Shown here one piece after another: positions 25,299-64,000 of a stretch of DNA of 64,000 nucleotides; position 1 is the first letter of the stretch, and the number at the start of each line of letters is the position of its first letter. A model generated the notes under the pieces. It searched no databases. It saw only the letters and a list, made by a program, of their open reading frames with translations, and was not told the origin of the DNA. The position numbers and the translations under genes were made by a program. Origin of the DNA: Naegleria gruberi (Eukaryota); NCBI GenBank assembly GCA_000004985.1, contig GG738878.1, one strand, 5' to 3'.

Positions 25299-25341
25299 TT
25301 TTTTTGTAAAAAAAATCTTCAAATGAAAAGATCAAGTCAAC

Positions 25342-29188: not shown

Positions 29189-29908
29189 TTTTTTTTAACA
29201 TTTTCAATACAGGTTTACAATGAATATATTAGGTTACTGCTAAGACAAAATTGACTTTGGATTGTAAAAACAGTGTTTCATGTTTGCTTTCCAAAAATCT
29301 TGTTTTAAATTCTTTCTTAATGTAATAAAACTTTATTTTAAAAAAACTTAATATAGAAATAATAGATTCAGTGAAATTTTGATGTTGGATTGTGGATTTT
29401 GTTATTTAATGGATGGGTCTTGTGTAGCCTGTCTCCATCCATAGATATGCTATCATTGAAACTTGGCGATTACAAAAAAATTATCTGAAGTTGGGCCAAT
29501 TAGACAATGACTACAATAATAGCACACACTCTCTGGAGAAACTCTCTCGTCTTATCAGCAAAGACTCCTCAACTTTATTTGGGACAAGCACAAAAGAACA
29601 CCTAAGAACGTGGCAGCTTTAAAACACTTTAACTCTTGTTAATACATAATATTTGGTGTTGGTGGTAGACGAGACATCAAGTATGTCGATGTTATTACAA
29701 AACTGTGTGATGTTCGACTCATTTGATTTGGTCTGATTGTTTTTTTTGATCACGTTTAGCTGATTAAGTTTATCATGAGATTAGAAGTATCCCTATTCCT
29801 TGATTCGAATATGTTTTCAAATAAAGCTTGGAATCGAACTCATCAGATACAACAATTTCAAAATAGATAACTAGTCCTTTAAACTAATATTACAAAAAGT
29901 TTAAAAAA

Positions 29909-32275
29909 ATGAAACGAAGTCTTGCTACTACACATTCATCGGAATCGAATAATGGAGAAAGTTGTGATGCTGCTAATGATGAAAATAAATTAAAAAAGGC
30001 TAAAATGATGATGGCCACCGATGCAATGCTAAATTGTCCAGTGGAGGTATTTGTTGCTCCGAATGATGAAATTTATATTGCTGATAGAGATAATCATCGG
30101 GTGAGAAAAATACTAAAAGATGGAACAATGGTAACCATTGCAGGATGGAGTTTTGGTGGTTTTGGTGGTGATGGTGGTCCTGCAACGAGTGCAATGTTGG
30201 ATTTTCCCACAAGTATTGCTGTTTCTTCAGATAATGAAGTGTATATTGCTGATTTGGGAATTTATAGAATTAGGAAAATATTAAGAAATGGTAATATTGT
30301 AACAATTGCTGGAACTGGAGAAGAAGGATTTAGTGGTGATGGAGGACCTGCAATTAATGCACAAATATCAGCTGTGTGGAATATTGCCCTTTCTCAAAAT
30401 AATGAATTGTATTTTGTTGACTATTCAAACTGTAGAATCAGGAAAATATTAAGAAATGGAACTATTGTAACAATTGCAGGAACTGGAGAAGACGGATTTA
30501 GTGGAGATGGTGGACTCGCAATCAATGCAAAACTTGGCTATCCTTGCAGTGTTTTTGTTTCCAAAGATGATGAGGTGTATATTGCTGATAGCCAAAATAA
30601 TAGGGTGAGAAAAATATTGAGAAATGGAATTATTAATACAATTGCAGGAACTGGAGAAGAAGGATTCAGTGGTGATGGTGGACCTGCAACAAATGCACAA
30701 TTGAACGTTCCATGTGGTGTATTTGTTTCAGCAACGAATGAAGTTTATATTGTGGATAGTGGAAATTGTAGAATTAGAAAAATATTGAGAAATGGAATTA
30801 TTAATACAATTGCAGGAACTGGAGAAGAAGGATATAGTGGTGATGGAGGACCTGCAATTAATGCACAAATATCAAATGTATACAATATATTCGTTTCTCA
30901 AAATGATGAAGTTTATATTGCCGATACAAATAATCACAGAATTAGAAAAATATTGAAAGATGGAACAATTGAAACAATTGCTGGAAATGGTGAAAAAGGA
31001 TTCAGTGGTGATTCACCATTTGATTTTTCATCGCATCCACACATTGGAAATGATTATACTATAATTCCAAAAATCCAATTGAAAAAACATTCAAGAGATG
31101 AATTATTTGGATTGGAATTGATTGGATTTATTCCATTAATAGAAAAGTTATCACCACAATTTTGTAAAATAATATTGAAAAATGAAAAACTATTGAAATC
31201 AATGAATTCGCAACAAATAGAAATTATTCAAAAACTAATTGATTCATTGATATATGAAAATGTATATCATTTTACAGAGATTGAAAGATTGAATTCATTT
31301 AAAGAATATGATATATTGAATGTATTATTCATTTTAGGAATGTTCAAGAATTGTGAATTTATTGATTTTAAAAGAGTATTTGTAAACGCATTTATTAATT
31401 CCATCACGCTGGAAACACTTCCTTCAAAATGGGAACAAAGTGAGAATTTACTCAAATTTTGTCAAGAAATAGAAGTTGAAAATTACATATTGGAATATTT
31501 GAATAATTATTGTTTGGAATATTCTGCCATTCAATTGAGAAATCCACAATCAGCAAAACATCTTAAAACTGCACCAATCATTATGAGAAATAGTCTGAAT
31601 ATTGTATTAATGTTGGAAGTAACAACGACAAGTCCAATGCAAATAGAAGACACTGAAATTAAACTACAAGGAATGGAATCACTATTTAATGATGAGAAGT
31701 CCAGTGATGTTAAAATCAAAATAAGCAAAGACCAATATTTATATTGTCACAAATCAATACTAAGCAGTTCGTGTATTTTTTTTAATGCATTATTCGAAAG
31801 TGGATCATCATTCAGTGATCTTAGTGATGATGTCTTTACACCTGATGAATCAGAAGATTTAGAATTATTGGAAATTAGTATCAAAAGTTGTTATGGGATT
31901 CCAATCCATAACTCTTTTAGTTTTATTAGATTAATAGATATAGCTTTGAAACATGAAAATCAATGCCTAATTTATCATTGCAAGAAAAACTTTTCACTAA
32001 CAATTGATAATTATTTCGAAAAAGCCTTAGAATGTGGAAAATATTTTCATTTAGATTGTTTTTCAAGTTTTTTTGATACTTTTTTGAGCTTTGGAACACG
32101 AAATTGTGAAAAACTCTTCACAGATTGTGCAAAAGTTGGTCAATTACCAGAGCAACTTCGCAATGCCTTAATCATCGACTTTACACTAGTGTTGAGCTTT
32201 TCCTCGAGACCTGCTCTCACTTGGAGATATCCGAATGTTTATTATGATGACCCTGAGTTTGGTGTTCGTTTTTAA
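29909..32275 (+). CDS. NHL-repeat + C-terminal BTB/POZ-like protein (paralog 3)
   Basis: A 788-aa intact ORF (MKRSLATTHSSESNN...) with the same architecture. It has seven NHL repeats, a conserved linker (SPFDFSSHPHIGNDYTIIPKIQLKKHSRDELFGL...) and a BTB-like domain (SDVKIKISKDQYLYCHKSILSSSCIFFNALFESGSSF). Confidence 0.8.
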   Translation: MKRSLATTHSSESNNGESCDAANDENKLKKAKMMMATDAMLNCPVEVFVAPNDEIYIADRDNHRVRKILKDGTMVTIAGWSFGGFGGDGGPATSAMLDFPTSIAVSSDNEVYIADLGIYRIRKILRNGNIVTIAGTGEEGFSGDGGPAINAQISAVWNIALSQNNELYFVDYSNCRIRKILRNGTIVTIAGTGEDGFSGDGGLAINAKLGYPCSVFVSKDDEVYIADSQNNRVRKILRNGIINTIAGTGEEGFSGDGGPATNAQLNVPCGVFVSATNEVYIVDSGNCRIRKILRNGIINTIAGTGEEGYSGDGGPAINAQISNVYNIFVSQNDEVYIADTNNHRIRKILKDGTIETIAGNGEKGFSGDSPFDFSSHPHIGNDYTIIPKIQLKKHSRDELFGLELIGFIPLIEKLSPQFCKIILKNEKLLKSMNSQQIEIIQKLIDSLIYENVYHFTEIERLNSFKEYDILNVLFILGMFKNCEFIDFKRVFVNAFINSITLETLPSKWEQSENLLKFCQEIEVENYILEYLNNYCLEYSAIQLRNPQSAKHLKTAPIIMRNSLNIVLMLEVTTTSPMQIEDTEIKLQGMESLFNDEKSSDVKIKISKDQYLYCHKSILSSSCIFFNALFESGSSFSDLSDDVFTPDESEDLELLEISIKSCYGIPIHNSFSFIRLIDIALKHENQCLIYHCKKNFSLTIDNYFEKALECGKYFHLDCFSSFFDTFLSFGTRNCEKLFTDCAKVGQLPEQLRNALIIDFTLVLSFSSRPALTWRYPNVYYDDPEFGVRF

Positions 32276-44829: not shown

Positions 44830-47100
44830 CCGCTTTTTTGCAATGCTCCTTCAAACAATAGAATGCTCCCTTTTCCCGCCAATAAAAACCGTTTGGATTG
44901 TAAAAATGATAAAATTCTGTTCACTGTGAACGTGTAACTTCTATTCAAATATTCGTATGGATGAACGGTTAGAATTAATCAAAATGAAAAGAAAGAACGT
45001 AGACGCCTCCAGCACTAACAAAAAACAAGCTACACTCGATGGCTTTGTTACCTCCAATCAACAAAATAGCCAAGGAGGAACACAACAGGACCAACAAAAT
45101 AGCCAAGATCAGCAATCAAGCCAACTCAGTCCATCCAACGGCCAAAACCTAACACCTAAATACTCTGCTAAGCAGTTGGATGATGAAACTGATTGGATAG
45201 CATCTTTATTCAATTTTAACAAAGAAGGATTTGAAAAGGTTTCTTCCAACATTGTGTATCCTAAAATTACCGAAACTCCTACCACTCCTAAAACCATTCT
45301 GAGAAATGTAACTTGCACTGAGGTCAGCCTTGAACTTCTAATTTCAAACATGATTCCAAACCACTTTTGGCAAATACTATTGGACATATTAAACACTAAC
45401 TTGACCAGAGAGAGTACAACTGGAAAAGCATCTTCACACTCAAAGTATTACAATGATATTGATATCTCTCAGCTTTTCTCTTTTTTGGGAACTGTAATTA
45501 GCTTAGAAAACAACCATTCAAAGTTGAATGCCAATGCCAAAACCAATTTACAACAGCTTCGTGCAGAAAAGTTGGATAGCATGATTCCTGGTTATAGAAG
45601 ATACTTTTCTTTGATGAAATGTTTTGCTCCTTCTGACCAACAATTTGAATTGATTTCAACAGCATTAAACGATATCACTTTAAATGCTGTTACAATTGGT
45701 TCCAATTTTGTTGTGGACGAAACAGTGTATGCATATCAGATTTCCTCAATCGTTAAAGCAGAGGCTGAACTCTTGCAATGTCCAATTCCAGTAGTGTACA
45801 TTCCAAGAAAACCATATCCAAATGGACTTATGTCTTATAAGTTGTGTGTACTATTTCCTGGGTGTAGGAAACCTTATGTTTTAGCCATCCTTCCTCAATA
45901 CAAAGTTCCTATGGATTCCCCTCAGGAAGCAATGTTAAAATTGTTGAAAATGGTTCGTGAATGTACTGATCAAAACTTGCATATTACTGGTGATGCTGCA
46001 TTTGGTTCATTCACTATCTTTGATGAGCTAATCAAATTGAATGTTGTTGGCACTTTCTCTATTTCAGGTACTGAAAAGTCATGGATCTGGGATTTGTTGA
46101 AGAGAACACTCACTCATGGTAATTGGAAGGCTGCTGAATTTATTTCAAAATCTGTGATCGCTTCTATGCAAAGAAATCCTCAATACCAATCAGACAGAGA
46201 CAAGAAATATCACCATCTTGTTTCGAATGCATTTGATTTTGAACACTGCCAACCATTTCAGCAAACTCTTGCAAATATTCTACCTCCTTTTTGCAGAAAA
46301 ATACGGTGGAAAAATTGAAAGAAATTGGAAAGAAGGAACATATCAAATTAAGTAAGCTCACTAAGGATGAAATCATCCAGAAGATTCAATTTATTTGCAA
46401 CTCCACAAATGTAAAATCACTTCAACTACATGCTTTGCATTCGTTTGATCAGAATCAATTTAACGCTACCTCTGCTATCCATCATGACCATTATAGACGT
46501 ACTTTTAATCTTGTCGACATTCAAGATAAGTACCATTATAAGGCTAGATATGCCTATATCATCACTGAGTGGAGAACCAAATTGATGATCAGTTTATTGA
46601 ATGATCTATTTTATAACTTGTTCGCTATTATGAATGAAACTGTTCGAATCAAATATTCAGACTTTAGAAAACTGCTGGCCGAAACCTTTCTCTCTATGGG
46701 AAAGAAACTTGGCGCCAAAAAATAACTCTCCTTCCAATAAACTTCCATTTTAATTTAATTTCACACAAAAAAATTCACCAACTTTAACCAAGCATATCCT
46801 CCTTAATACGCAACTATTCGTAAAAAAAATTACATATGGTATTAGTATCTGATCTTATCTCTTACCACCACAAAATTCAATATTCGATATTAAGTAGTTG
46901 AGCGAAAAATCGCTTTTCCCAAAAAGGTATATGATGTCATAACTCACTAATTATCTCAATGAAAACAAAAGATTAAATATTCAAAAATGAATAGGATATA
47001 GTATACATGATATGAAATCATTCGTGTAAAATTCAAGATGTTATACCATGTATTAAACTAAATATTTCCTTTTAAAGAGGGAGCACTAGAAAAAAGCGGG
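44830..47100 (+). mobile_element. piggyBac-like DNA transposon (about 2.27 kb) with imperfect terminal or subterminal inverted repeats
   Basis: The left repeat CCGCTTTTTTGCAATGCTCC (44830-44849) and the right repeat GGGAGCACTAGAAAAAAGCGGG (47079-47100, whose reverse complement is CCCGCTTTTTTCTAGTGCTCCC) match at about 17 of 22 positions. They bracket one transposase-like coding region. I could not identify TTAA target-site duplications. Confidence 0.6.
44957..46725 (+). CDS. piggyBac-family (DDE_Tnp_1_7-like) transposase; two ORFs joined by a frameshift
   Basis: The ORFs are 44957..46318 (453 aa) and 46291..46725 (144 aa) in different frames. The switch falls at A-runs near 46291-46318. Hallmarks match piggyBac. 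ISQLFSFLGTVISLEN matches EIYAFFGILVMTAV. FVVDETVYAYQ matches LSIDESMIPFKGR (first D). PVVYIPRKPYPNGLMSYKLCVLF matches RQYIPNKPAKYGIKILMMCD. HITGDAAFGSFTIFDEL...VVGTFSI matches NITCDNWFTSIPLAKNL...IVGTVRSN (third D). The second catalytic Asp appears replaced (LFPGC against MMCDSG). I see no Cys-rich C-terminal domain. Confidence 0.7.
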
Positions 47101-52000: not shown

Positions 52001-52942
52001 TCAATTCATTGAAGCAAAATTAGGAATATAATATGTTGATAGCTCAACAAGAGCCATATAATTAGATTCTCCAATAAGATTCTTAATTCCATTCTCATCA
52101 ACAATTACAAGAGTTACATTCTTTGGAACTTGAATTTGTTGCGAACCCACTTTAGGTCTATCAATAATACTTCCTTCATAAAATACTCCCAATAATTCTT
52201 TTTCTAGTTTGCATCTATAAAACATGGTAAAAATTATCTTGACGTTTGGTGGAAAATCTTTCAACTTGTCAATTTCTCCATAAAGTTCAGTAAAACTAAA
52301 CTCTGACTTATTTTTGTCTTGAATACACCACCACAAATCTTGTTCAAAAACAATAAACATATCTGGCCCACGTGATTTTTCTTTCATAATAGAAAGTCTG
52401 TTCTGATAAGCACTAAAATGTAAATGAACTTTCTTCCATTCGCTTTCAGCGTTTTCTCTTGTACGCTTATTTGTTATCATGGTAGGAAAATTAATGCAAA
52501 GCTTATCAGCTAAAGTTGTACCTGTTAAAAAAGGGAAAACACTTCCGAAATTAGAGTTTTGGAGAAGACCCAGTTTAGATTTCCAAACAATAAATGATCC
52601 AATTAATATCTCAAATGTTGCTCCCTTATCCAAAAATTGAGGAATTGTTTTTACAAATCGTTGAATTGAAAATGATGGTCCATAAATTCCTAAATACTTC
52701 CTGATTGTTCTTCTTGGAAATGCAAGTCTAATATTTCCATTGTTTTCATTAGTCACATAACAATTTAATGCTACAGCCAAGGTGCTCAAATCAACTTCTT
52801 TGACATCTTCAAGACCGCTAATTTTTGTAAACTCAAACATTGTTGTATTAAATTTCAAATCAGATTTTAAATCAGTAACTACTTGACCTATAAACATTAG
52901 AAATGTGTAAACTTGGCCAGCAAAACTCTTCCAAAAATCCAC
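52001..52942 (-). CDS. hypothetical protein; last gene before the telomere-like repeat block; possibly 5'-truncated
   Basis: A 313-aa ORF whose first in-frame ATG is 15 codons in. The ORF-track start is a GTG. The upstream sequence runs straight into the GGGTTT-type repeats. I recognise no domain. Confidence 0.45.
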   Translation of the reverse strand: MDFWKSFAGQVYTFLMFIGQVVTDLKSDLKFNTTMFEFTKISGLEDVKEVDLSTLAVALNCYVTNENNGNIRLAFPRRTIRKYLGIYGPSFSIQRFVKTIPQFLDKGATFEILIGSFIVWKSKLGLLQNSNFGSVFPFLTGTTLADKLCINFPTMITNKRTRENAESEWKKVHLHFSAYQNRLSIMKEKSRGPDMFIVFEQDLWWCIQDKNKSEFSFTELYGEIDKLKDFPPNVKIIFTMFYRCKLEKELLGVFYEGSIIDRPKVGSQQIQVPKNVTLVIVDENGIKNLIGESNYMALVELSTYYIPNFASMN

Positions 52943-52980
52943 AAATCAAGAAAGGTTTGCCAAACAAATCAAGAAAGGCA

Positions 52981-53010
52981 GGGGGTTGGGTTTGGGTTTG
53001 GGTATGGCGA
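52981..53010 (+). repeat. short degenerate telomere-like block (GGGGGTTGGGTTTGGGTTTGGGTATGG)
   Basis: Read directly from the sequence. It lies about 290 bp upstream of the long array. Confidence 0.8.
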
Positions 53011-53297
53011 AAACCTAATCACATAAAACGAACGGCTAATATTGGCTATCCAGTTCTTATATATGTATTATTAAATACATTAATATATCTATTCTGTAAT
53101 ACACGTGAAAAAACTCCCCGTAGTTATTGAGATAATCAAAAATGGTCAACTCAAAAATTCATAGTATATCTATTATCTCTGCGACGAGAACGTTCCGGGT
53201 TATGATTCACTCAAATATCAATCTATATGAGTTTTGGAAGAAATGATAGAAAATACTAATTTTTTTAATTCGCCGTTCCCGAGATAATTGAGTCCTT

Positions 53298-53540
53298 GGG
53301 TTTGGGTTTGGGTTTGGGTTTGGATTTGGGTTTGGGTTTGGGTTTGGGTTTGGGTTTGGGTTTGGGTTTGGGTTTGGGTTTGGGTTTGGGTTTGGGTTTG
53401 GGTTTGGGTTTGGTTTAGGTTTGGGTTTGGGTTTGGGTTTGGGTTTGGGTTTGGGTTTGGGTTTGGGTTTGGGTTTGGGTTTGGGTTTGGGTTTGGGTTT
53501 GGGTTTGGGTTTGGGTTTGGGTTTGGGTTTGGGTTTGGGT
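53298..53540 (+). repeat. (GGGTTT)n telomere-like hexamer array 1, about 40 units, running into an N gap
   Basis: Read directly. The only variant unit is GGTTTAGGTTT at 53411. The array ends at the gap at 53541-54836. Confidence 0.95.
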
Positions 53541-54836
53541 NNNNNNNNNNNNNNNNNNNNNNNNNNNNNNNNNNNNNNNNNNNNNNNNNNNNNNNNNNNN
53601 NNNNNNNNNNNNNNNNNNNNNNNNNNNNNNNNNNNNNNNNNNNNNNNNNNNNNNNNNNNNNNNNNNNNNNNNNNNNNNNNNNNNNNNNNNNNNNNNNNNN
53701 NNNNNNNNNNNNNNNNNNNNNNNNNNNNNNNNNNNNNNNNNNNNNNNNNNNNNNNNNNNNNNNNNNNNNNNNNNNNNNNNNNNNNNNNNNNNNNNNNNNN
53801 NNNNNNNNNNNNNNNNNNNNNNNNNNNNNNNNNNNNNNNNNNNNNNNNNNNNNNNNNNNNNNNNNNNNNNNNNNNNNNNNNNNNNNNNNNNNNNNNNNNN
53901 NNNNNNNNNNNNNNNNNNNNNNNNNNNNNNNNNNNNNNNNNNNNNNNNNNNNNNNNNNNNNNNNNNNNNNNNNNNNNNNNNNNNNNNNNNNNNNNNNNNN
54001 NNNNNNNNNNNNNNNNNNNNNNNNNNNNNNNNNNNNNNNNNNNNNNNNNNNNNNNNNNNNNNNNNNNNNNNNNNNNNNNNNNNNNNNNNNNNNNNNNNNN
54101 NNNNNNNNNNNNNNNNNNNNNNNNNNNNNNNNNNNNNNNNNNNNNNNNNNNNNNNNNNNNNNNNNNNNNNNNNNNNNNNNNNNNNNNNNNNNNNNNNNNN
54201 NNNNNNNNNNNNNNNNNNNNNNNNNNNNNNNNNNNNNNNNNNNNNNNNNNNNNNNNNNNNNNNNNNNNNNNNNNNNNNNNNNNNNNNNNNNNNNNNNNNN
54301 NNNNNNNNNNNNNNNNNNNNNNNNNNNNNNNNNNNNNNNNNNNNNNNNNNNNNNNNNNNNNNNNNNNNNNNNNNNNNNNNNNNNNNNNNNNNNNNNNNNN
54401 NNNNNNNNNNNNNNNNNNNNNNNNNNNNNNNNNNNNNNNNNNNNNNNNNNNNNNNNNNNNNNNNNNNNNNNNNNNNNNNNNNNNNNNNNNNNNNNNNNNN
54501 NNNNNNNNNNNNNNNNNNNNNNNNNNNNNNNNNNNNNNNNNNNNNNNNNNNNNNNNNNNNNNNNNNNNNNNNNNNNNNNNNNNNNNNNNNNNNNNNNNNN
54601 NNNNNNNNNNNNNNNNNNNNNNNNNNNNNNNNNNNNNNNNNNNNNNNNNNNNNNNNNNNNNNNNNNNNNNNNNNNNNNNNNNNNNNNNNNNNNNNNNNNN
54701 NNNNNNNNNNNNNNNNNNNNNNNNNNNNNNNNNNNNNNNNNNNNNNNNNNNNNNNNNNNNNNNNNNNNNNNNNNNNNNNNNNNNNNNNNNNNNNNNNNNN
54801 NNNNNNNNNNNNNNNNNNNNNNNNNNNNNNNNNNNN
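53541..54836. other. assembly gap (N run, 1296 nt)
   Basis: Contiguous N. Confidence 1.
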
Positions 54837-55529
54837 CTGATATACCATGATTAATTGATCTATATATGATATTATAATTGAAAGATTTTAAAATTAATAT
54901 GATTTCATTATATTGACATTCATAATTCTCATGATTACACTCCTTACATGTTGAATGATTTCAAATTGTGATGAAACTGATACAGTGGTGTTTATTCACC
55001 ATTAGTAAGGTACTGTACCAATTTCATGATGATCTGTATAGTACATGTCATTGTCACATCCCTGTAGGTATCAAGTGGATCAGCCATGTACCATGTATGA
55101 TATGGATGAATGTCAAAATGATATTAATGTATTTAATTATCATGTATATATGTATTGGAAGTGAATTGAAGTGGTATAGATTTCTATCTTCAATGTTAGT
55201 ATAGGTCAGTTGACAAGTTGAATAGTAAATTTCTTGAAATGATACCAAAGTATTTGAAATTGATATATATTGTTATTAACATGATTTATAAGATGATATA
55301 TTGATTTGAAATGATTTTGAAATGTTTTCATTGATATTCTTATTGTCTAATCTATTATATGAAATTAACTTATATTAGTCATGATAATGATGTAATATTA
55401 TGTTATAATATGATTATATATTCAATTTGGAGTATATTGATATATAATATATTGATTTATAATGAGTATTTATTGAGATAATTAATTAAGATGAATAAAA
55501 GTCAAAAGGTTGGGTCTGACCTTAGTCGT

Positions 55530-55796
55530 GGGTTTGGGTTTGGGTTTGGGTTTGGGTTTGGGTTTGGGTTTGGGTTTGGGTTTGGGTTTGGGTTTGGGTT
55601 TGGGTTTGGGTTTGGGTTTGGGTTTGGGTTTGGGTTTGGGTTTGGGTTTTGGTTTTGGGTTTGGGTTTGGGTTTGGGTTTGGGTTTGGGTTGGGTTTGGG
55701 TTTGGGTTTGGGTTTGGGTTTGGGTTTGGGTTTGGGTTTGGGTTTGGGTTTGGGTTTGGGTTTGGGTTTGGGTTTGGGTTTGGGTTTGGGTTTGGA
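55530..55796 (+). repeat. (GGGTTT)n telomere-like array 2, running into a 50-N gap
   Basis: Read directly. Variants are GGGTTTTGGTTTTGGG at about 55645 and GGGTTGGGTTT at about 55686. A gap of exactly 50 N follows (55797-55846), which is the usual placeholder for an unknown-size gap. Confidence 0.95.
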
Positions 55797-56435
55797 NNNN
55801 NNNNNNNNNNNNNNNNNNNNNNNNNNNNNNNNNNNNNNNNNNNNNNAGTACATGAAATTGAATTCTATATCATTATAGATCATTTACATCATTTTGGTAA
55901 AGTTTCAATAGGTTTTCCTTTTTCAAGATTTCATCTTTTTGTCATAGTTGACCATATGATGATTGAGGGAAGAAATCTTTAAATATGAAAGTTAAAATAA
56001 ATTTGATATTCGATGTTTACTCATCAAATGGAACATTTTCATATTAGGATTCAATATGTTTTGATGAGAAACTCAAAAGTTATTGTTGACCTCTTTTACC
56101 TCACATCTCCCTTTTCACTCAATACTTTTATATCTACAGACATGAACTTTTGAAATTTCATATGAAAGTGATTATGAATGTTGTTAACGATGATATTGAC
56201 TATATAATCTTATTAAACGATTTTGAAATTATCATTCTTCCTATGGTTTCATTTTAACAATTTTAATCTGACATTATTTACAAAGTTAATATTTTATAAA
56301 TTGAAAAACTAAATATACTGCGTTGTTCTACTCATCATTTCCTATCGAATGATATAAAATTTAATGATATTTGAATAAGTTTATAATTTTGGGCTAGGGT
56401 TTGAAGGTTGGGTTTAGAAGAATTCTATTTTTAGT

Positions 56436-56728
56436 TTTGGGTTTGGGTTTGGGTTTGGGTTTGGGTTTGGGTTTGGGTTTGGGTTTGGGTTTGGGTTTGG
56501 GTTTGGGTTTGGGTTTGGGTTTGGGTTTGGGTTTGGGTTTGGGTTTGGGTTTGGGTTTGGGTTTGGGTTTGGGTTTGGGTTTGGGTTTGGGTTTGGGTTT
56601 GGGTTTGGGTTTGGGTTTGGGTTGGGTTTTGGTTTTGGTTTGGGTTGGGTTTGGGTTTGGGTTTGGGGTTGGGTTTGGGTTTGGGTTTGGGTTTGGGTTT
56701 GGGTTTGGGTTTGGGTTTGGGTTTGGGT
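56436..56728 (+). repeat. (GGGTTT)n telomere-like array 3, running into a 5.3-kb N gap
   Basis: Read directly. Degenerate units (GGGCTAGGGTTTGAAGGTTGGGTTTAG) lie just before it at 56391-56418. Internal variants are GGGTTGGGTTTTGGTTTTGGTTTGGGTTGGG. The gap is 56729-62006. Confidence 0.95.
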
Positions 56729-59700
56729 NNNNNNNNNNNNNNNNNNNNNNNNNNNNNNNNNNNNNNNNNNNNNNNNNNNNNNNNNNNNNNNNNNNNNNNN
56801 NNNNNNNNNNNNNNNNNNNNNNNNNNNNNNNNNNNNNNNNNNNNNNNNNNNNNNNNNNNNNNNNNNNNNNNNNNNNNNNNNNNNNNNNNNNNNNNNNNNN
56901 NNNNNNNNNNNNNNNNNNNNNNNNNNNNNNNNNNNNNNNNNNNNNNNNNNNNNNNNNNNNNNNNNNNNNNNNNNNNNNNNNNNNNNNNNNNNNNNNNNNN
57001 NNNNNNNNNNNNNNNNNNNNNNNNNNNNNNNNNNNNNNNNNNNNNNNNNNNNNNNNNNNNNNNNNNNNNNNNNNNNNNNNNNNNNNNNNNNNNNNNNNNN
57101 NNNNNNNNNNNNNNNNNNNNNNNNNNNNNNNNNNNNNNNNNNNNNNNNNNNNNNNNNNNNNNNNNNNNNNNNNNNNNNNNNNNNNNNNNNNNNNNNNNNN
57201 NNNNNNNNNNNNNNNNNNNNNNNNNNNNNNNNNNNNNNNNNNNNNNNNNNNNNNNNNNNNNNNNNNNNNNNNNNNNNNNNNNNNNNNNNNNNNNNNNNNN
57301 NNNNNNNNNNNNNNNNNNNNNNNNNNNNNNNNNNNNNNNNNNNNNNNNNNNNNNNNNNNNNNNNNNNNNNNNNNNNNNNNNNNNNNNNNNNNNNNNNNNN
57401 NNNNNNNNNNNNNNNNNNNNNNNNNNNNNNNNNNNNNNNNNNNNNNNNNNNNNNNNNNNNNNNNNNNNNNNNNNNNNNNNNNNNNNNNNNNNNNNNNNNN
57501 NNNNNNNNNNNNNNNNNNNNNNNNNNNNNNNNNNNNNNNNNNNNNNNNNNNNNNNNNNNNNNNNNNNNNNNNNNNNNNNNNNNNNNNNNNNNNNNNNNNN
57601 NNNNNNNNNNNNNNNNNNNNNNNNNNNNNNNNNNNNNNNNNNNNNNNNNNNNNNNNNNNNNNNNNNNNNNNNNNNNNNNNNNNNNNNNNNNNNNNNNNNN
57701 NNNNNNNNNNNNNNNNNNNNNNNNNNNNNNNNNNNNNNNNNNNNNNNNNNNNNNNNNNNNNNNNNNNNNNNNNNNNNNNNNNNNNNNNNNNNNNNNNNNN
57801 NNNNNNNNNNNNNNNNNNNNNNNNNNNNNNNNNNNNNNNNNNNNNNNNNNNNNNNNNNNNNNNNNNNNNNNNNNNNNNNNNNNNNNNNNNNNNNNNNNNN
57901 NNNNNNNNNNNNNNNNNNNNNNNNNNNNNNNNNNNNNNNNNNNNNNNNNNNNNNNNNNNNNNNNNNNNNNNNNNNNNNNNNNNNNNNNNNNNNNNNNNNN
58001 NNNNNNNNNNNNNNNNNNNNNNNNNNNNNNNNNNNNNNNNNNNNNNNNNNNNNNNNNNNNNNNNNNNNNNNNNNNNNNNNNNNNNNNNNNNNNNNNNNNN
58101 NNNNNNNNNNNNNNNNNNNNNNNNNNNNNNNNNNNNNNNNNNNNNNNNNNNNNNNNNNNNNNNNNNNNNNNNNNNNNNNNNNNNNNNNNNNNNNNNNNNN
58201 NNNNNNNNNNNNNNNNNNNNNNNNNNNNNNNNNNNNNNNNNNNNNNNNNNNNNNNNNNNNNNNNNNNNNNNNNNNNNNNNNNNNNNNNNNNNNNNNNNNN
58301 NNNNNNNNNNNNNNNNNNNNNNNNNNNNNNNNNNNNNNNNNNNNNNNNNNNNNNNNNNNNNNNNNNNNNNNNNNNNNNNNNNNNNNNNNNNNNNNNNNNN
58401 NNNNNNNNNNNNNNNNNNNNNNNNNNNNNNNNNNNNNNNNNNNNNNNNNNNNNNNNNNNNNNNNNNNNNNNNNNNNNNNNNNNNNNNNNNNNNNNNNNNN
58501 NNNNNNNNNNNNNNNNNNNNNNNNNNNNNNNNNNNNNNNNNNNNNNNNNNNNNNNNNNNNNNNNNNNNNNNNNNNNNNNNNNNNNNNNNNNNNNNNNNNN
58601 NNNNNNNNNNNNNNNNNNNNNNNNNNNNNNNNNNNNNNNNNNNNNNNNNNNNNNNNNNNNNNNNNNNNNNNNNNNNNNNNNNNNNNNNNNNNNNNNNNNN
58701 NNNNNNNNNNNNNNNNNNNNNNNNNNNNNNNNNNNNNNNNNNNNNNNNNNNNNNNNNNNNNNNNNNNNNNNNNNNNNNNNNNNNNNNNNNNNNNNNNNNN
58801 NNNNNNNNNNNNNNNNNNNNNNNNNNNNNNNNNNNNNNNNNNNNNNNNNNNNNNNNNNNNNNNNNNNNNNNNNNNNNNNNNNNNNNNNNNNNNNNNNNNN
58901 NNNNNNNNNNNNNNNNNNNNNNNNNNNNNNNNNNNNNNNNNNNNNNNNNNNNNNNNNNNNNNNNNNNNNNNNNNNNNNNNNNNNNNNNNNNNNNNNNNNN
59001 NNNNNNNNNNNNNNNNNNNNNNNNNNNNNNNNNNNNNNNNNNNNNNNNNNNNNNNNNNNNNNNNNNNNNNNNNNNNNNNNNNNNNNNNNNNNNNNNNNNN
59101 NNNNNNNNNNNNNNNNNNNNNNNNNNNNNNNNNNNNNNNNNNNNNNNNNNNNNNNNNNNNNNNNNNNNNNNNNNNNNNNNNNNNNNNNNNNNNNNNNNNN
59201 NNNNNNNNNNNNNNNNNNNNNNNNNNNNNNNNNNNNNNNNNNNNNNNNNNNNNNNNNNNNNNNNNNNNNNNNNNNNNNNNNNNNNNNNNNNNNNNNNNNN
59301 NNNNNNNNNNNNNNNNNNNNNNNNNNNNNNNNNNNNNNNNNNNNNNNNNNNNNNNNNNNNNNNNNNNNNNNNNNNNNNNNNNNNNNNNNNNNNNNNNNNN
59401 NNNNNNNNNNNNNNNNNNNNNNNNNNNNNNNNNNNNNNNNNNNNNNNNNNNNNNNNNNNNNNNNNNNNNNNNNNNNNNNNNNNNNNNNNNNNNNNNNNNN
59501 NNNNNNNNNNNNNNNNNNNNNNNNNNNNNNNNNNNNNNNNNNNNNNNNNNNNNNNNNNNNNNNNNNNNNNNNNNNNNNNNNNNNNNNNNNNNNNNNNNNN
59601 NNNNNNNNNNNNNNNNNNNNNNNNNNNNNNNNNNNNNNNNNNNNNNNNNNNNNNNNNNNNNNNNNNNNNNNNNNNNNNNNNNNNNNNNNNNNNNNNNNNN

Positions 59701-62006
59701 NNNNNNNNNNNNNNNNNNNNNNNNNNNNNNNNNNNNNNNNNNNNNNNNNNNNNNNNNNNNNNNNNNNNNNNNNNNNNNNNNNNNNNNNNNNNNNNNNNNN
59801 NNNNNNNNNNNNNNNNNNNNNNNNNNNNNNNNNNNNNNNNNNNNNNNNNNNNNNNNNNNNNNNNNNNNNNNNNNNNNNNNNNNNNNNNNNNNNNNNNNNN
59901 NNNNNNNNNNNNNNNNNNNNNNNNNNNNNNNNNNNNNNNNNNNNNNNNNNNNNNNNNNNNNNNNNNNNNNNNNNNNNNNNNNNNNNNNNNNNNNNNNNNN
60001 NNNNNNNNNNNNNNNNNNNNNNNNNNNNNNNNNNNNNNNNNNNNNNNNNNNNNNNNNNNNNNNNNNNNNNNNNNNNNNNNNNNNNNNNNNNNNNNNNNNN
60101 NNNNNNNNNNNNNNNNNNNNNNNNNNNNNNNNNNNNNNNNNNNNNNNNNNNNNNNNNNNNNNNNNNNNNNNNNNNNNNNNNNNNNNNNNNNNNNNNNNNN
60201 NNNNNNNNNNNNNNNNNNNNNNNNNNNNNNNNNNNNNNNNNNNNNNNNNNNNNNNNNNNNNNNNNNNNNNNNNNNNNNNNNNNNNNNNNNNNNNNNNNNN
60301 NNNNNNNNNNNNNNNNNNNNNNNNNNNNNNNNNNNNNNNNNNNNNNNNNNNNNNNNNNNNNNNNNNNNNNNNNNNNNNNNNNNNNNNNNNNNNNNNNNNN
60401 NNNNNNNNNNNNNNNNNNNNNNNNNNNNNNNNNNNNNNNNNNNNNNNNNNNNNNNNNNNNNNNNNNNNNNNNNNNNNNNNNNNNNNNNNNNNNNNNNNNN
60501 NNNNNNNNNNNNNNNNNNNNNNNNNNNNNNNNNNNNNNNNNNNNNNNNNNNNNNNNNNNNNNNNNNNNNNNNNNNNNNNNNNNNNNNNNNNNNNNNNNNN
60601 NNNNNNNNNNNNNNNNNNNNNNNNNNNNNNNNNNNNNNNNNNNNNNNNNNNNNNNNNNNNNNNNNNNNNNNNNNNNNNNNNNNNNNNNNNNNNNNNNNNN
60701 NNNNNNNNNNNNNNNNNNNNNNNNNNNNNNNNNNNNNNNNNNNNNNNNNNNNNNNNNNNNNNNNNNNNNNNNNNNNNNNNNNNNNNNNNNNNNNNNNNNN
60801 NNNNNNNNNNNNNNNNNNNNNNNNNNNNNNNNNNNNNNNNNNNNNNNNNNNNNNNNNNNNNNNNNNNNNNNNNNNNNNNNNNNNNNNNNNNNNNNNNNNN
60901 NNNNNNNNNNNNNNNNNNNNNNNNNNNNNNNNNNNNNNNNNNNNNNNNNNNNNNNNNNNNNNNNNNNNNNNNNNNNNNNNNNNNNNNNNNNNNNNNNNNN
61001 NNNNNNNNNNNNNNNNNNNNNNNNNNNNNNNNNNNNNNNNNNNNNNNNNNNNNNNNNNNNNNNNNNNNNNNNNNNNNNNNNNNNNNNNNNNNNNNNNNNN
61101 NNNNNNNNNNNNNNNNNNNNNNNNNNNNNNNNNNNNNNNNNNNNNNNNNNNNNNNNNNNNNNNNNNNNNNNNNNNNNNNNNNNNNNNNNNNNNNNNNNNN
61201 NNNNNNNNNNNNNNNNNNNNNNNNNNNNNNNNNNNNNNNNNNNNNNNNNNNNNNNNNNNNNNNNNNNNNNNNNNNNNNNNNNNNNNNNNNNNNNNNNNNN
61301 NNNNNNNNNNNNNNNNNNNNNNNNNNNNNNNNNNNNNNNNNNNNNNNNNNNNNNNNNNNNNNNNNNNNNNNNNNNNNNNNNNNNNNNNNNNNNNNNNNNN
61401 NNNNNNNNNNNNNNNNNNNNNNNNNNNNNNNNNNNNNNNNNNNNNNNNNNNNNNNNNNNNNNNNNNNNNNNNNNNNNNNNNNNNNNNNNNNNNNNNNNNN
61501 NNNNNNNNNNNNNNNNNNNNNNNNNNNNNNNNNNNNNNNNNNNNNNNNNNNNNNNNNNNNNNNNNNNNNNNNNNNNNNNNNNNNNNNNNNNNNNNNNNNN
61601 NNNNNNNNNNNNNNNNNNNNNNNNNNNNNNNNNNNNNNNNNNNNNNNNNNNNNNNNNNNNNNNNNNNNNNNNNNNNNNNNNNNNNNNNNNNNNNNNNNNN
61701 NNNNNNNNNNNNNNNNNNNNNNNNNNNNNNNNNNNNNNNNNNNNNNNNNNNNNNNNNNNNNNNNNNNNNNNNNNNNNNNNNNNNNNNNNNNNNNNNNNNN
61801 NNNNNNNNNNNNNNNNNNNNNNNNNNNNNNNNNNNNNNNNNNNNNNNNNNNNNNNNNNNNNNNNNNNNNNNNNNNNNNNNNNNNNNNNNNNNNNNNNNNN
61901 NNNNNNNNNNNNNNNNNNNNNNNNNNNNNNNNNNNNNNNNNNNNNNNNNNNNNNNNNNNNNNNNNNNNNNNNNNNNNNNNNNNNNNNNNNNNNNNNNNNN
62001 NNNNNN
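56729..62006. other. assembly gap (N run, 5278 nt)
   Basis: Contiguous N. Confidence 1.
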
Positions 62007-62304
62007 TTATCCACAATTTTCTGAATCCAACATAGATAATGCAAAGATTAGATATATTAAGGATATTTTCTTTATTGAATTCAATGGCTTATTTTATGCG
62101 ATTAGCAGTTGTCATAATGTGAGATATGTGGTGGATGCTTCAAAAGAATTTGATGGAATTCCTGGAAACAATTATCAAGTTACTGCACACTCAAGAACAG
62201 TTGTTTTTTACAAAACATGTTCAGCAGTCATTTATCCCAAGTTAGCTACTCATCTTCAAAATCGATCAATACTCACTGATTGCTATTTTCAGTTTGAATC
62301 ATGA
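62007..62304 (+). CDS. 3' fragment of an unidentified gene emerging from the gap
   Basis: The frame is open from the gap edge to a stop at 62302-62304 (YPQFSESNIDNAKIRYIKDIFFIEFNGLFYAISSCHNVRYVVDASKEF...). Composition is coding-like and I recognise no domain. Confidence 0.35.
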
Positions 62305-62511
62305 TTTGTAAGGTGAATATTGCAAATGAAAACACTCTATTTACATGTGGAACATTGAGATTACTTATCAAAATAAGTTTCTGGTCTGTGCTAAACTGAA
62401 ATTGAGGTCAATTTTACAAAGATGTTATTGAGAACCGAAGTTGGGTACTGCTGTGAAGAAAACTATGCAATTTGTAAATGAACCTTTCCATAATTATAGT
62501 TATCAAAAAAA

Positions 62512-63276
62512 ATGTCAACAATTAAAGAAGAGGATTCATCATGGATTGATGAATATCAAACTTCGGAACAGAAAGAGGATTTTGGATTTAAATATGAAGA
62601 GGAAATTCCACTTTCGTATAATTTTTCATCTCATAAAGTTGAAACTCTTTCGGATCACATTTCTGCTGAAATATTCGAGAATTATGATAAGACTCAAATT
62701 AAAGTTGTAGATTTGTTTCCAAATAATCGAATGGGGTTAACTGGATTTTTAATAGAAAATTGTTTTTCATCAGACGAATGCCAACTAATGATTAAAGCAA
62801 TGGAAACGGTTGGACTTGATTTCAAGTTGAGTGGAAATCGTCATTGCTTTAGAAAATCAATCATGGATGAGAAGCTCTCTGAAATTCTATTCGAAAGAAG
62901 TCGAGACTTTCTTCCACAATCTTACAAAGTTTCTGGAATTGATAGACCTCTTCAAGGCCTCAATCCCATGATTCGATACATCAAGTATCTCCACAAGAAA
63001 TTCGGTCACAAATTCGGACCTCACGTAGATGCTGCCAATCATTCCAACAATTGTAAAAGTTTCTTTACATTCATGGTTTATTTGAATGATGATTTTGAGG
63101 GAGGAGAAACTGTCTTTCTAGAGAAGGGTTTCCAAGCTCGTATTAAACCAAAAACTGGAACTGTTTGTGTATTTGAGCAAGATGTAAGACAACTCTTACA
63201 CGAAGGTCTGGAAGTTGAAGGAGACGAAAATTGTAAAAAGTACATTCTCAGATCAGATGTCATGTACCGTCCTTAA
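62512..63276 (+). CDS. 2-oxoglutarate/Fe(II)-dependent dioxygenase, prolyl-4-hydroxylase-like
   Basis: A 254-aa ORF. It has the HxD...H iron triad and the 2OG-binding RxS (FGPHVDAANH...FTFMVYLNDDFEGGETVF...LLHEGLEVEG...KYILRSDVMY), as in the P4Hc fold. Confidence 0.75.
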   Translation: MSTIKEEDSSWIDEYQTSEQKEDFGFKYEEEIPLSYNFSSHKVETLSDHISAEIFENYDKTQIKVVDLFPNNRMGLTGFLIENCFSSDECQLMIKAMETVGLDFKLSGNRHCFRKSIMDEKLSEILFERSRDFLPQSYKVSGIDRPLQGLNPMIRYIKYLHKKFGHKFGPHVDAANHSNNCKSFFTFMVYLNDDFEGGETVFLEKGFQARIKPKTGTVCVFEQDVRQLLHEGLEVEGDENCKKYILRSDVMYRP

Positions 63277-63700
63277 TTGATGAGGAGAACAATGCAATTT
63301 CACAATAAACATCTAGCTCTACATCTGGACAACTTATTTTCAAAGCAGCAATTTTTGATTCCTTTCCATTACGTCATTTACAATATGAACGTTGAAAATG
63401 TTTCAGAAATTTCAAACTTCACTTACCAGATGCAGCTTGGAGGGAAATTAGAAGCAAAATTTAAAAAAAAAGCAAACAACGTTAAGCGTAAACATTAGGA
63501 AGATCTTTTAGAATCGTATTAAACATTTATTATCATCATAGTAATAATATAAATATTAATAGTGAGAGAATCATATTTGTGTTATTGTTGGTGAAAAGGA
63601 ATAACAAATAGAAGATCAATTTTGATAAATATTATAATTTAATATTATAACGGAAAATAATTAAAAACAAATCAACAACAATTCTCGGAGAAGGAAGAAA

Positions 63701-64000
63701 ATGGTCAAAATTTACGGATTATTCATCTTGAAACAACAACATTCAAGCAAACCTTTAGTGTTGAGTAGTAATGTAGATAGTGGATGGTATAGTTTCTTCT
63801 ATACTGATCAAATCACAGAAATTACAGTCTTTTTGGCTAAATTATTGGCAGAAAAGACTCAACCTGGATTGAGACAACAAGTTGAAAAGGATGATTTGGT
63901 TGGTTATGTACAAAAAACAAAGGAAGGAATGAGTTGTGTATTGGTCACTGATAAGGATTATCCATTAAGAGTGGCTTTTGATTTGGTTAGATATACTTGA
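63701..64000 (+). CDS. ykt6: YKT6-type longin-domain SNARE, N-terminal part; runs off the window end
   Basis: MVKIYGLFILKQQHSSKPLVLSSNVD..SFFYTDQITEITVFLAKLLAEKTQPG...DDLVGYVQKTKEGMSCVLVTDKDYPLRVAFDLV parallels YKT6 MKLYSLSVLYKG..KVVLLKAAYDVSSFSFFQRSSVQEFMTF...ADNEYPSRVAFTLLEKV. Confidence 0.75.
   Translation: MVKIYGLFILKQQHSSKPLVLSSNVDSGWYSFFYTDQITEITVFLAKLLAEKTQPGLRQQVEKDDLVGYVQKTKEGMSCVLVTDKDYPLRVAFDLVRYT

What the first reader, a model, noticed from the sequence alone, without database searches (positions are those of the whole stretch)
52943..62006. Three same-orientation (GGGTTT)n telomere-like arrays, each running into an assembly gap, separated by short AT-rich unique segments
Arrays at 53298-53540, 55530-55796 and 56436-56728 all have the G-rich strand on + and all end at an N-run. 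Each is preceded by degenerate units (GGGGGTTGGGTTTGGGTATGG at 52981, GGGCTAGGGTTTGAAGGTTGGGTTTAG at 56391), as is typical of telomere-proximal decay. With the G-strand pointing 3' to the right, each array looks like a right-hand chromosome end. Two readings fit. First, the scaffolder chained several chromosome termini or telomere-bearing contigs together. Second, they are genuine interstitial telomeric sequences or a very abundant hexamer satellite that breaks the assembly. A 6-nt T3G3 unit is not one of the common textbook telomere repeats, so this may document the telomere motif of this organism. The gene at 52001-52942 abuts the first block and lacks a clear ATG start, so it may have been truncated by terminal healing.
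Basis: partly seen in the sequence, partly recalled or inferred. Interest (0 to 1): 0.7.

Follow-up and report, generated by a model that had tools for sequence, protein, structure and literature searches.

The report
Naegleria telomere-repeat blocks beside assembly gaps
Three blocks of the already-published candidate telomere repeat (TTTGGG)n of the amoeba Naegleria gruberi lie in an unresolved 8.5 kb stretch of the draft genome, next to a recently duplicated, inverted gene block, so this is a known repeat in a badly assembled spot and not a new telomere motif.

Summary
Three near-perfect (GGGTTT)n arrays of 41-49 units lie with the G-strand on +, and each stops at an N-run. Two short degenerate telomere-like blocks share that orientation. 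The window comes from a 395,411-bp Naegleria gruberi NEG-M scaffold.

TTTGGG was proposed as this species' candidate telomere repeat in 2013, from this same assembly, so the motif is not new.

The two inner contigs are 960 and 882 bp, about one Sanger read each. The visible array lengths are therefore probably set by read length.

New here: the sequence right of the arrays is one copy of a near-identical inverted duplication. Its twin (P0130 and a second 2OG oxidoreductase gene) lies just left of the window, about 62 kb away. The arrays thus sit at the boundary between single-copy DNA and a duplicated block.

The neighbouring gene (52001-52942) has an upstream stop and two in-frame ATGs, so it does not look truncated.

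My best reading, at about 0.5, is genuine interstitial telomere-repeat arrays: old chromosome-end remnants at a duplication junction, too long for Sanger reads to cross. The main rival, at about 0.3-0.35, is a scaffolding error that chained one or more real chromosome ends. Only mate-pair or long-read data can decide. Interest is low to moderate.

The parts
52001..52942 (-). Orphan gene P0001 (EFC42744.1, NAEGRDRAFT_69505). The annotated protein is 279 aa and starts at the second in-frame ATG. Its 5' end faces the arrays.
   Evidence: The only database hit is itself, at 100% identity, in N. gruberi. An upstream in-frame stop and two ATGs are present. No Pfam domain was found.
52982..53007 (+). 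Short degenerate telomere-like block, GGGGGTT (GGGTTT)2 GGGTAT GG. It is truly interstitial, because it is flanked by unique sequence inside one contig.
53008..53295 (.). Spacer U1: 288 bp of unique non-coding sequence, 30.9% GC.
   Evidence: No significant similarity to the rest of the window. No open frame longer than chance.
53296..53540 (+). Array A1: 41 TTGGGT/GGGTTT units, 97% perfect, with an abrupt junction (gagtcc|ttgggttt). It is cut off by the end of the contig.
53541..54836 (.). Assembly gap of 1296 N.
54837..55528 (.). Spacer U2: 692 bp, unique, 24.6% GC, non-coding. It forms the left part of a 960-bp contig.
55529..55796 (+). Array A2: 44.5 units. A cluster of variant units (GGGTTTT GGTTTT ... 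GGGTT) lies about 810-850 nt from the start of the contig.
55797..55846 (.). Assembly gap of 50 N. I infer this is a floor or placeholder value.
55847..56435 (.). Spacer U3: 589 bp, unique, 25.1% GC, non-coding. It contains a degenerate telomere-like block at 56391-56417 and forms the left part of an 882-bp contig.
56436..56728 (+). Array A3: 49 units. A cluster of variant units lies about 770-815 nt from the start of the contig.
56729..62006 (.). Assembly gap of 5278 N. It must hold at least the first ~295 codons of the P0130-like gene.
62007..62304 (+). C-terminal 98 codons of an unannotated gene that runs out of the gap. It matches residues 296-392 of P0130 (EFC42736.1, NAEGRDRAFT_69480) at 94 of 97 positions. 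P0130 is encoded on the same scaffold but outside the window.
   Evidence: The frame is open over its full length (p=0.006). phmmer against 1.84 billion representatives gave the P0130 hit. tblastn finds only this one site in the window.
62512..63276 (+). 2OG-Fe(II) oxygenase gene, identical to P0134 (EFC42653.1, NAEGRDRAFT_69506). Its twin P0002 (EFC42735.1), next to P0130, differs by one residue (Q20L).

Best explanation
The arrays are blocks of the Naegleria gruberi telomere-type repeat (TTTGGG)n. They lie inside a chromosome, at the junction between about 62 kb of single-copy DNA and a recently duplicated, inverted gene block.

Most likely they are remnants of one or more former chromosome ends that became internal when a copy of the block P0130-2OG oxygenase(-...) was attached distal to the old telomere. 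This is the same logic as the internal (TTAGGG)n islands found at the borders of human subtelomeric duplicated blocks. The alternation of array, AT-rich spacer and array, all in one orientation, would record repeated rounds of terminal addition and re-capping.

Each array is longer than a Sanger read anchored in the flank could cross, so the assembler stopped inside it and left a gap. The visible lengths of 245-293 bp are therefore lower bounds set by the reads.

What is shown: the arrays, their single orientation, the organism, the earlier publication of the motif, the read-sized contigs, and the inverted near-identical duplication. What is inferred: that the scaffold order is correct, that the arrays continue into the gaps, and the historical mechanism.
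For: (1) The motif matches the published candidate telomere repeat of this species.

(2) All five telomere-like blocks are on the + strand. Two of them, 52982-53007 and 56391-56417, are demonstrably interstitial within contiguous sequence. Telomere-type sequence inside non-telomeric DNA is therefore real at this locus, in the same orientation.

(3) The right flank is a duplicated block. The fragment at 62008-62304 is 94/97 identical to the end of P0130. The window's 2OG gene is P0134, and its twin P0002 differs by 1 aa. Coordinate-ordered UniProt and JGI numbering gives D2VKQ7 = P0002, D2VKQ8 = P0130, D2VKR0 = window 2376-3710, D2VKR1 = window 4531-5520, then D2VKT3/T4/T5 = hydrolase, P0001, P0134. 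The strand-sorted EFC numbers agree. Together they place the twin immediately left of the window, on the opposite strand and with reversed gene order.

(4) The gap sizes of 1296, 50 and 5278 N are specific estimates of the kind produced by 3-kb and 8-kb clone mates. This implies that physical clones link left contig to U2, U2 to U3, and U3 to the right contig. This step rests on my own knowledge of JGI Sanger/JAZZ scaffolding, not on a test here.

(5) If U2 and U3 were the tips of other chromosomes, they should be attached to their own long unique contigs. Instead they are stranded in read-sized contigs.

(6) Fulneckova et al. note that most genomes with terminal telomere repeats also show internal blocks longer than 100 bp.
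Against: No read or contig crosses any of the three arrays, so internal position is not shown for A1-A3.

The left edges of the U2, U3 and right-hand contigs carry no GGGTTT units. If an array abutted them directly, junction reads should have added some.

The two inner contigs are about one read long, which implies very low coverage and few mate links.

At 97% perfect, the arrays look young or telomerase-maintained, not like decayed interstitial sequence.

A near-identical duplication is exactly the setting in which scaffolders make errors.

Synteny with N. lovaniensis could not confirm that the two flanks are neighbours. Their orthologues lie on different contigs, and no neighbouring gene is conserved on either side.
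Confidence: 0.5

Rival explanations
1. Scaffolding artefact. Array A1, and possibly A2 and A3, is a genuine right-hand chromosome terminus. The two read-sized contigs and the duplicated right-hand block were chained after it by a few spurious, chimeric or repeat-confounded mate pairs.
For: The orientation is that of a right-hand chromosome end for the left flank, and all matches are on +.

Every array ends at a gap.

The junction into A1 is abrupt. Contig-terminal (GGGTTT)n telomeres in environmental contigs have the same look. Some of those also carry a short same-orientation block just proximal to the array, like 52982-53007 plus A1.

The inner contigs are single-read sized, so they may rest on one link each.

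The arrays are 97% pure, as expected for maintained telomeres.

The right flank is a near-identical duplicate, a classic cause of misjoins.

The N. lovaniensis orthologues of left- and right-flank genes lie on different contigs. This is weak evidence, because there is no local synteny at all.
Against: The scaffold continues with gene-dense sequence, and the gap sizes are specific estimates. Several independent erroneous links would be needed.

Confusing the two duplicate copies does not by itself predict a join to the right end of the 62-kb segment. True mates of the left copy would fall near window position 1.

Terminal pieces of other chromosomes should sit in long contigs of their own.
Confidence: 0.33
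2. Staggered chromosome ends among homologous copies. In the polyploid, heterozygous NEG-M strain, different homologues or subclones end at 53295, 55528 and 56435 with newly added telomeres, while another copy continues into the duplicated block. The assembler strung these alternative ends along one path.
For: All arrays share one orientation and are ordered by distance from the same flank.

The junctions are abrupt, and short TG-rich seed sequences lie just upstream of A2 and A3.

The very small contigs fit falling copy number along the region.
Against: Under this model the continuing, non-telomeric branches, such as the sequence following 53295, should also have been assembled, yet they appear only as Ns.

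There is no direct evidence here for ploidy or heterozygosity at this locus, and none of it can be tested without reads.
Confidence: 0.08
3. Telomere-associated mobile elements. The spacers would be ends of retroelements that insert at or into telomere arrays, like Penelope-like Athena elements, TRAS/SART or GilT, each re-capped by telomerase.
For: Same-orientation arrays separated by non-telomeric DNA is the architecture produced by such elements. This comparison rests on my own knowledge of Gladyshev & Arkhipova 2007, not on a test here.
Against: U1, U2 and U3 share no significant similarity with each other or with the rest of the window.

They have no Pfam hit and no open frame beyond chance, and no Rfam match.

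The only gene emerging from the gaps is an ordinary cellular gene with a weak RCC1-like match, not a reverse transcriptase.
Confidence: 0.04

Closest known systems
Candidate telomere repeat (TTTGGG)n of Naegleria gruberi (Fulneckova et al. 2013, Genome Biol Evol, PMC3622300)
   Same: Same organism, same public assembly and same hexamer. That survey also noted that internal blocks longer than 100 bp commonly accompany terminal arrays.
   Different: The paper reports the motif from the position and orientation of arrays at scaffold ends. It does not describe this locus, and it states that experimental confirmation is still needed.
Interstitial telomeric sequences at the borders of subtelomeric duplicated blocks, as in human subtelomeres (own knowledge: work of Riethman and colleagues)
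   Same: Telomere-motif arrays are oriented like the terminal array. They lie between blocks, and at least one of those blocks is a recent segmental duplication.
   Different: Here the arrays are long (at least 41-49 units) and 97% pure. The twin of the duplicated block lies only about 62 kb away on the same scaffold, in inverted orientation. Internal position is unproven because every array ends in a gap.
T3G3-containing ciliate telomeres. Paramecium uses mixed TTGGGG/TTTGGG (own knowledge). The metagenome contig set JAESGV01 found here is a further example.
   Same: The same hexamer serves as a true terminal repeat. All 21 JAESGV01 contigs end in (GGGTTT)n in the correct orientation with abrupt junctions.
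   Different: It is a different lineage. Open reading frame content of those contigs rises 4.6-fold under the ciliate genetic code, and they share no sequence with this window.
Repeat-induced gaps and misjoins in Sanger whole-genome shotgun scaffolds
   Same: The contigs stop inside simple repeats, read-sized contigs are captured inside gaps, and a near-identical duplicate lies beside the gap. The window's other gap, 25342-27776, also falls inside repeated NHL-repeat genes.
   Different: Whether there is an actual misjoin here is untested.

Membership tests
Terminal telomere array (true chromosome end) | Tandem array of the species' telomerase-type repeat | tested here: met
   There are 41-49 units of GGGTTT at 97% purity. 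The motif equals the published candidate for N. gruberi. Its telomere function has not been shown experimentally in any paper I could find.
Terminal telomere array (true chromosome end) | G-rich strand runs 5'->3' towards the end of the molecule | tested here: met
   All arrays have the G-strand on +, which fits a right-hand end for the left flank.
Terminal telomere array (true chromosome end) | Nothing lies distal to the array (terminal position) | tested here: inconclusive
   As the scaffold is drawn, sequence continues after each array, but only across N-runs. No contiguous sequence leaves any array on its distal side.
Terminal telomere array (true chromosome end) | BAL31 sensitivity and heterogeneous length of terminal fragments | not testable with these tools
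   This needs wet-lab work or long reads.
Interstitial telomeric sequence (ITS) | Telomere-motif block flanked on both sides by non-telomeric DNA in contiguous sequence | tested here: inconclusive
   Met for the two short degenerate blocks, 52982-53007 and 56391-56417. Not demonstrable for A1-A3, whose distal sides are gaps.
Interstitial telomeric sequence (ITS) | Association with a rearrangement or segmental-duplication junction (subtelomeric-type or fusion-type ITS) | tested here: met
   The right flank is one copy of a near-identical inverted duplication: 94/97 and 253/254 aa identity to twins on the same scaffold.
Head-to-head telomere fusion site | Arrays in opposite orientation, (GGGTTT)n followed by (CCCAAA)n | tested here: not met
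   There is no CCCAAA array in the window, and all 137 pattern matches are on +.
Telomere-specific retroelements (Athena-type Penelope-like elements, TRAS/SART, GilT) | Spacers belong to a repeated element family and encode a reverse transcriptase | tested here: not met
   The spacers are mutually unrelated. They have no Pfam domain and no significant open frame. The caveat is that 6.6 kb of the region is unsequenced.

The most novel reading that the evidence does not exclude
The scaffold is correct, and the locus records a recent chromosome-end rearrangement in Naegleria. A former telomere at the end of a 62-kb single-copy segment would have been extended by copying, in inverted orientation, a block that lies 62 kb upstream on the same chromosome, by fold-back or break-induced replication. 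Earlier rounds of spacer capture and re-capping would have left nested, still nearly perfect telomere arrays. A related variant is that homologues in the polyploid strain end at staggered healed breakpoints here. Either version would give the first sequence-level view of how chromosome ends are remodelled in a heterolobosean.
Probability: 0.15. Interest if true: 0.55.

Novelty: already known. Interest (0 to 1): 0.25.

Why it matters
The main value is practical. This stretch of the N. gruberi reference scaffold (window 52.9-62.0 kb, plus its twin just left of the window) should be treated as unresolved. The apparent ORFs through the arrays (GLGL..., WVWV...) are artefacts, and no gene model is annotated between IDs 69505 and 69506.

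The biological value is modest. If long reads confirm the order, the locus gives a dated example of telomere-type arrays trapped at a young inverted duplication. It would also give three unique probes (U1-U3) to test experimentally whether TTTGGG is the functional telomere of Naegleria, which appears never to have been verified at the bench.

Tried and rejected
(1) Getting more of the scaffold or independent N. gruberi contigs by exact-protein lookup failed. Five lookups returned 'not on record'.

(2) I tested synteny with N. lovaniensis around the right-flank 2OG oxygenase (P0003, locus L001) and the left-flank hydrolase (P0123, locus L002). Only the query genes match. No neighbouring gene is conserved, and neither 20-kb locus contains telomere arrays. 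This is uninformative about whether the flanks are adjacent.

(3) I looked for a shared subtelomeric element. The spacers U1-U3 are not related to each other or to the rest of the window. The best match is 74 bp at 73% identity, E=0.01.

(4) I tested whether the spacers are coding or RNA-derived. There are no Pfam hits, no open frames beyond chance and no Rfam match at E<=1 across 50-64 kb.

(5) I considered a retroelement or mobile family in the large gap. The gene emerging from it is a cellular paralogue, P0130, with a weak RCC1-like match and no reverse transcriptase.

(6) The literature search found no paper in the held library beyond Fulneckova 2013 that treats Naegleria telomeres. The N. 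fowleri nanopore paper does not mention them, and the 2010 genome paper and Joseph et al. 2021 are not held.

(7) A metagenome scan for (GGGTTT)8 shows the motif is terminal and correctly oriented in many contigs (41 correct against 10 wrong, p=1.5e-5). None is related to this window, and the main source looks like a ciliate.

(8) Truncation of gene 52001-52942 by healing is rejected.

(9) A head-to-head telomere fusion is rejected, because there is no opposite-strand array.


Full report
**1. What is there**

Reading the sequence and running Tandem Repeats Finder confirm three hexamer arrays with GGGTTT on the + strand:
- A1 at 53296-53540: 41 copies, 97% matches.
- A2 at 55529-55795: 44.5 copies.
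- A3 at 56436-56728: 49.2 copies.

Each runs straight into an N-run: 1296 N, 50 N and 5278 N respectively.

A 15-nt telomere pattern with up to 3 mismatches matches 137 times. Every match is on the + strand and lies between 52982 and 56727. Dinucleotide-preserving shuffles give 1.07 on average and at most 6. There is no CCCAAA array anywhere in the window.

Two short degenerate telomere-like blocks also occur inside contiguous sequence:
- GGGGGTT(GGGTTT)2GGGTATGG at 52982-53007, 288 bp before A1.
- GGGCTAGGGTTTGAAGGTTGGGTTTAG at 56391-56417, about 20 bp before A3.

The sequenced spacers are U1 (53008-53295, 31% GC), U2 (54837-55528, 24.6% GC) and U3 (55847-56435, 25.1% GC). They share no significant similarity with each other or with the rest of the window. 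They have no Pfam hit, no open frame longer than chance and no Rfam match.

**2. Whose genome, and is the motif new?**

The window is compact, intron-poor, 34% GC and uses the standard genetic code. It encodes kinesin, RhoGAP, VWA, ITFG1-like and NHL-repeat proteins.

The gene beside the arrays is 100% identical to a Naegleria gruberi predicted protein on a 395,411-bp scaffold. Six further window proteins carry N. gruberi NEG-M accessions from the same scaffold.

Fulneckova et al. 2013 (PMC3622300) scanned this same assembly and named TTTGGG as the unexpected candidate telomere repeat of N. gruberi. They judged this from position and orientation at scaffold ends. They added that most genomes with terminal arrays also have internal blocks longer than 100 bp, and that experiments are still needed. 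I found no later paper in the held library that tests it. The motif is therefore already in the literature, and this locus does not newly document it.

As independent context, I scanned metagenome contigs for (GGGTTT)8. Arrays lay at a contig or locus end in telomere-correct orientation 41 times and in the wrong orientation 10 times (binomial p=1.5e-5). Another 69 were internal. One contig set, JAESGV01, accounts for 21 of the correct cases with none wrong. The open reading frame content of those contigs rises 4.6-fold under the ciliate code, against 1.8-fold for this window. They are therefore probably from a ciliate and not a Naegleria relative. None shares sequence with the spacers here.

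**3. The neighbouring gene is not truncated**

The ORF at 52001-52942 (minus strand) is preceded by an in-frame stop at about 52946-52948. It has ATG codons at ORF positions 16 and 35, and the annotated 279-aa protein (P0001) starts at the second. It has no homologue other than itself, so nothing can be said about a missing N-terminus. It is also separated from A1 by 38 bp, the mini-array and U1. The terminal-healing idea has no support.

**4. Why every array ends at a gap**

The window's contigs are 1-25341, 27777-53540, 54837-55796 (960 bp), 55847-56728 (882 bp) and 62007-64000. The two inner contigs are about the length of one Sanger read.

The clusters of variant units in A2 and A3 (GGGTTTT GGTTTT, GGGTT, GGGGTT) lie 770-850 nt from the contig starts. 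Sanger base-calling degrades at that distance (this is inference).

From my own knowledge, this genome was a JGI Sanger shotgun assembled with JAZZ, in which N-run lengths are mate-pair estimates. If so, the visible array lengths of 245-293 bp are limits set by reads anchored in the flank. They are lower bounds, not biological lengths.

The window's other gap (25342-27776) also falls in repeated DNA, between paralogous NHL-repeat genes built from 168-bp units.

**5. The new finding: the right flank is a duplicated, inverted block**

The contig that resumes at 62007 starts in the middle of an open frame of 98 codons, open over its whole length (p=0.006).

An exhaustive phmmer search found P0130, a 392-aa N. 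gruberi protein (EFC42736.1, NAEGRDRAFT_69480, D2VKQ8). Its last 97 residues match the fragment at 94 of 97 positions. P0130 is encoded on the same scaffold, but its gene is not in the window.

The next gene, the 2OG-Fe(II) oxygenase at 62512-63276, is exactly P0134 (EFC42653.1, NAEGRDRAFT_69506, D2VKT5). A second copy on the same scaffold, P0002 (EFC42735.1, D2VKQ7), differs by one residue.

I calibrated the numbering with other window genes:
- Window 2376-3710(-) is EFC42738 / D2VKR0.
- Window 4531-5520(+) is EFC42635 / D2VKR1.
- Window 18177-18989(-) is EFC42741 / D2VKR8.
- The hydrolase is D2VKT3, P0001 is D2VKT4 and P0134 is D2VKT5.

UniProt and JGI numbers therefore follow coordinates, and EFC numbers are sorted by strand. 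On that basis P0002 (Q7) and P0130 (Q8) are minus-strand genes immediately left of the window, in the order 2OG then P0130. In the window the order is P0130-like then 2OG, on the plus strand. This is a near-identical inverted duplication whose two copies bracket about 62 kb of single-copy DNA. The telomere-type arrays sit at the inner edge of the right copy.

IDs 69505 and 69506 are consecutive, so no gene model was called in the array region. The duplication also explains the 5.3-kb gap.

**6. Weighing the readings**

The following favour a genuine internal cluster:
- Telomere-type blocks are demonstrably interstitial at two places in this locus, in the same orientation.
- The gap sizes are specific estimates compatible with 3-kb and 8-kb clones, which implies physical links across each gap.
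- Tips of other chromosomes should be embedded in their own long contigs, not stranded as read-sized pieces.
- Internal telomere-repeat islands at the borders of duplicated blocks are a known pattern.

The following count against it and favour a misjoin:
- Nothing crosses any array.
- The left edges of U2, U3 and the right-hand contig carry no repeat units.
- The inner contigs are so small that few links can support them.
- The arrays are 97% pure, like maintained telomeres.
- A1 has the abrupt junction and the proximal mini-block also seen at true terminal arrays in other organisms.
- A near-identical duplicate next door is a classic source of scaffolding error.

The synteny test was uninformative. 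The N. lovaniensis orthologues of a left-flank and a right-flank gene lie on different contigs, but no neighbouring gene is conserved around either.

A head-to-head fusion is excluded by orientation. A retroelement origin for the spacers finds no support.

My probabilities are about 0.5 for genuine interstitial arrays at a duplication junction and about 0.33 for a scaffolding artefact involving at least one true chromosome end. I put about 0.08 on staggered healed ends among homologues and about 0.04 on telomere-associated elements.

**7. Verdict**

This is a correct observation of a known repeat in a known problem type of region. The motif is already published for this organism, so there is no new kind of system here.

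The added value is the identification of the organism, the rejection of the gene-truncation idea, and the discovery that the arrays border a young inverted duplication. That last point makes the locus a good, specific target for the long-read data that now exist for this species.

Interest is 0.25. The most novel reading still open is a recent fold-back or telomere-capture rearrangement, or staggered ends. I rate that at about 0.15 probability and moderate interest.

Noticed in passing
window 62007-63276, and the scaffold just left of window position 1: There is a near-identical inverted segmental duplication. The P0130-like fragment plus 2OG oxygenase (P0134) in the window match P0002 plus P0130 immediately left of the window, at 94/97 and 253/254 aa identity. 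The two copies bracket about 62 kb of single-copy DNA. The full extent of the duplication is unknown.
   Followed up: partly
window 22992-32275: This is a cluster of three paralogous NHL-repeat genes built from 168-bp (56-aa) tandem units, and one carries a BTB domain. Two genes are on the minus strand and one on the plus strand, arranged divergently. A 2435-N assembly gap (25342-27776) lies between the minus-strand copies.
   Followed up: no
window 2376-3710 (-): This gene is annotated in GenBank as 'pesticin domain protein' (EFC42738.1). Pesticin is a bacterial toxin/lysozyme-type domain, so its presence in a eukaryote makes it a possible horizontal-transfer candidate.
   Followed up: no
window 62512-63276 (+): Apart from N. 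lovaniensis (50% identity), the closest relatives of the 2OG-Fe(II) oxygenase are bacterial or metagenomic prolyl-4-hydroxylase-like proteins at 34-41% identity, for example from Bacteroidota, Chryseobacterium and Uabimicrobium. The N-terminal ~70 residues are Naegleria-specific.
   Followed up: no
window 44957-46318 (+): A 453-aa ORF has a weak match (E=9e-4, below the gathering score) to the piggyBac-type transposase family DDE_Tnp_1_7. It could be a domesticated or decayed transposase.
   Followed up: no
window 52943-52980: A 14-15 bp direct repeat, CAAATCAAGAAAGG, occurs twice 21 bp apart. It lies between the upstream stop of gene P0001 and the telomere-like mini-array.
   Followed up: no
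loci L005, L013, L014, L020, L025, L039-L042, L051, L058, L060, L064, L070, L080, L085, L088, L089, L093, L101, L108 (WGS set JAESGV01): All 21 contigs end in (GGGTTT)n in telomere-correct orientation with abrupt junctions. GC is 20-39%. Open reading frame content rises 4.6-fold under genetic code 6, so these probably come from an uncharacterised ciliate with pure T3G3 telomeres and short chromosomes.
   Followed up: partly
window 11895-12725 and 18177-18989: Proteins at least 90% identical to these two N. gruberi proteins occur on short ENA/Logan contigs of 1.3 and 3.0 kb (P0138, P0140). N. gruberi-like DNA therefore exists in other public sequencing runs.
   Followed up: no
window 13434-13670: A 96-bp unit (1.9 copies) and a 36-bp unit (3.3 copies) form tandem repeats inside the ORF at 12966-14267.
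   Followed up: no
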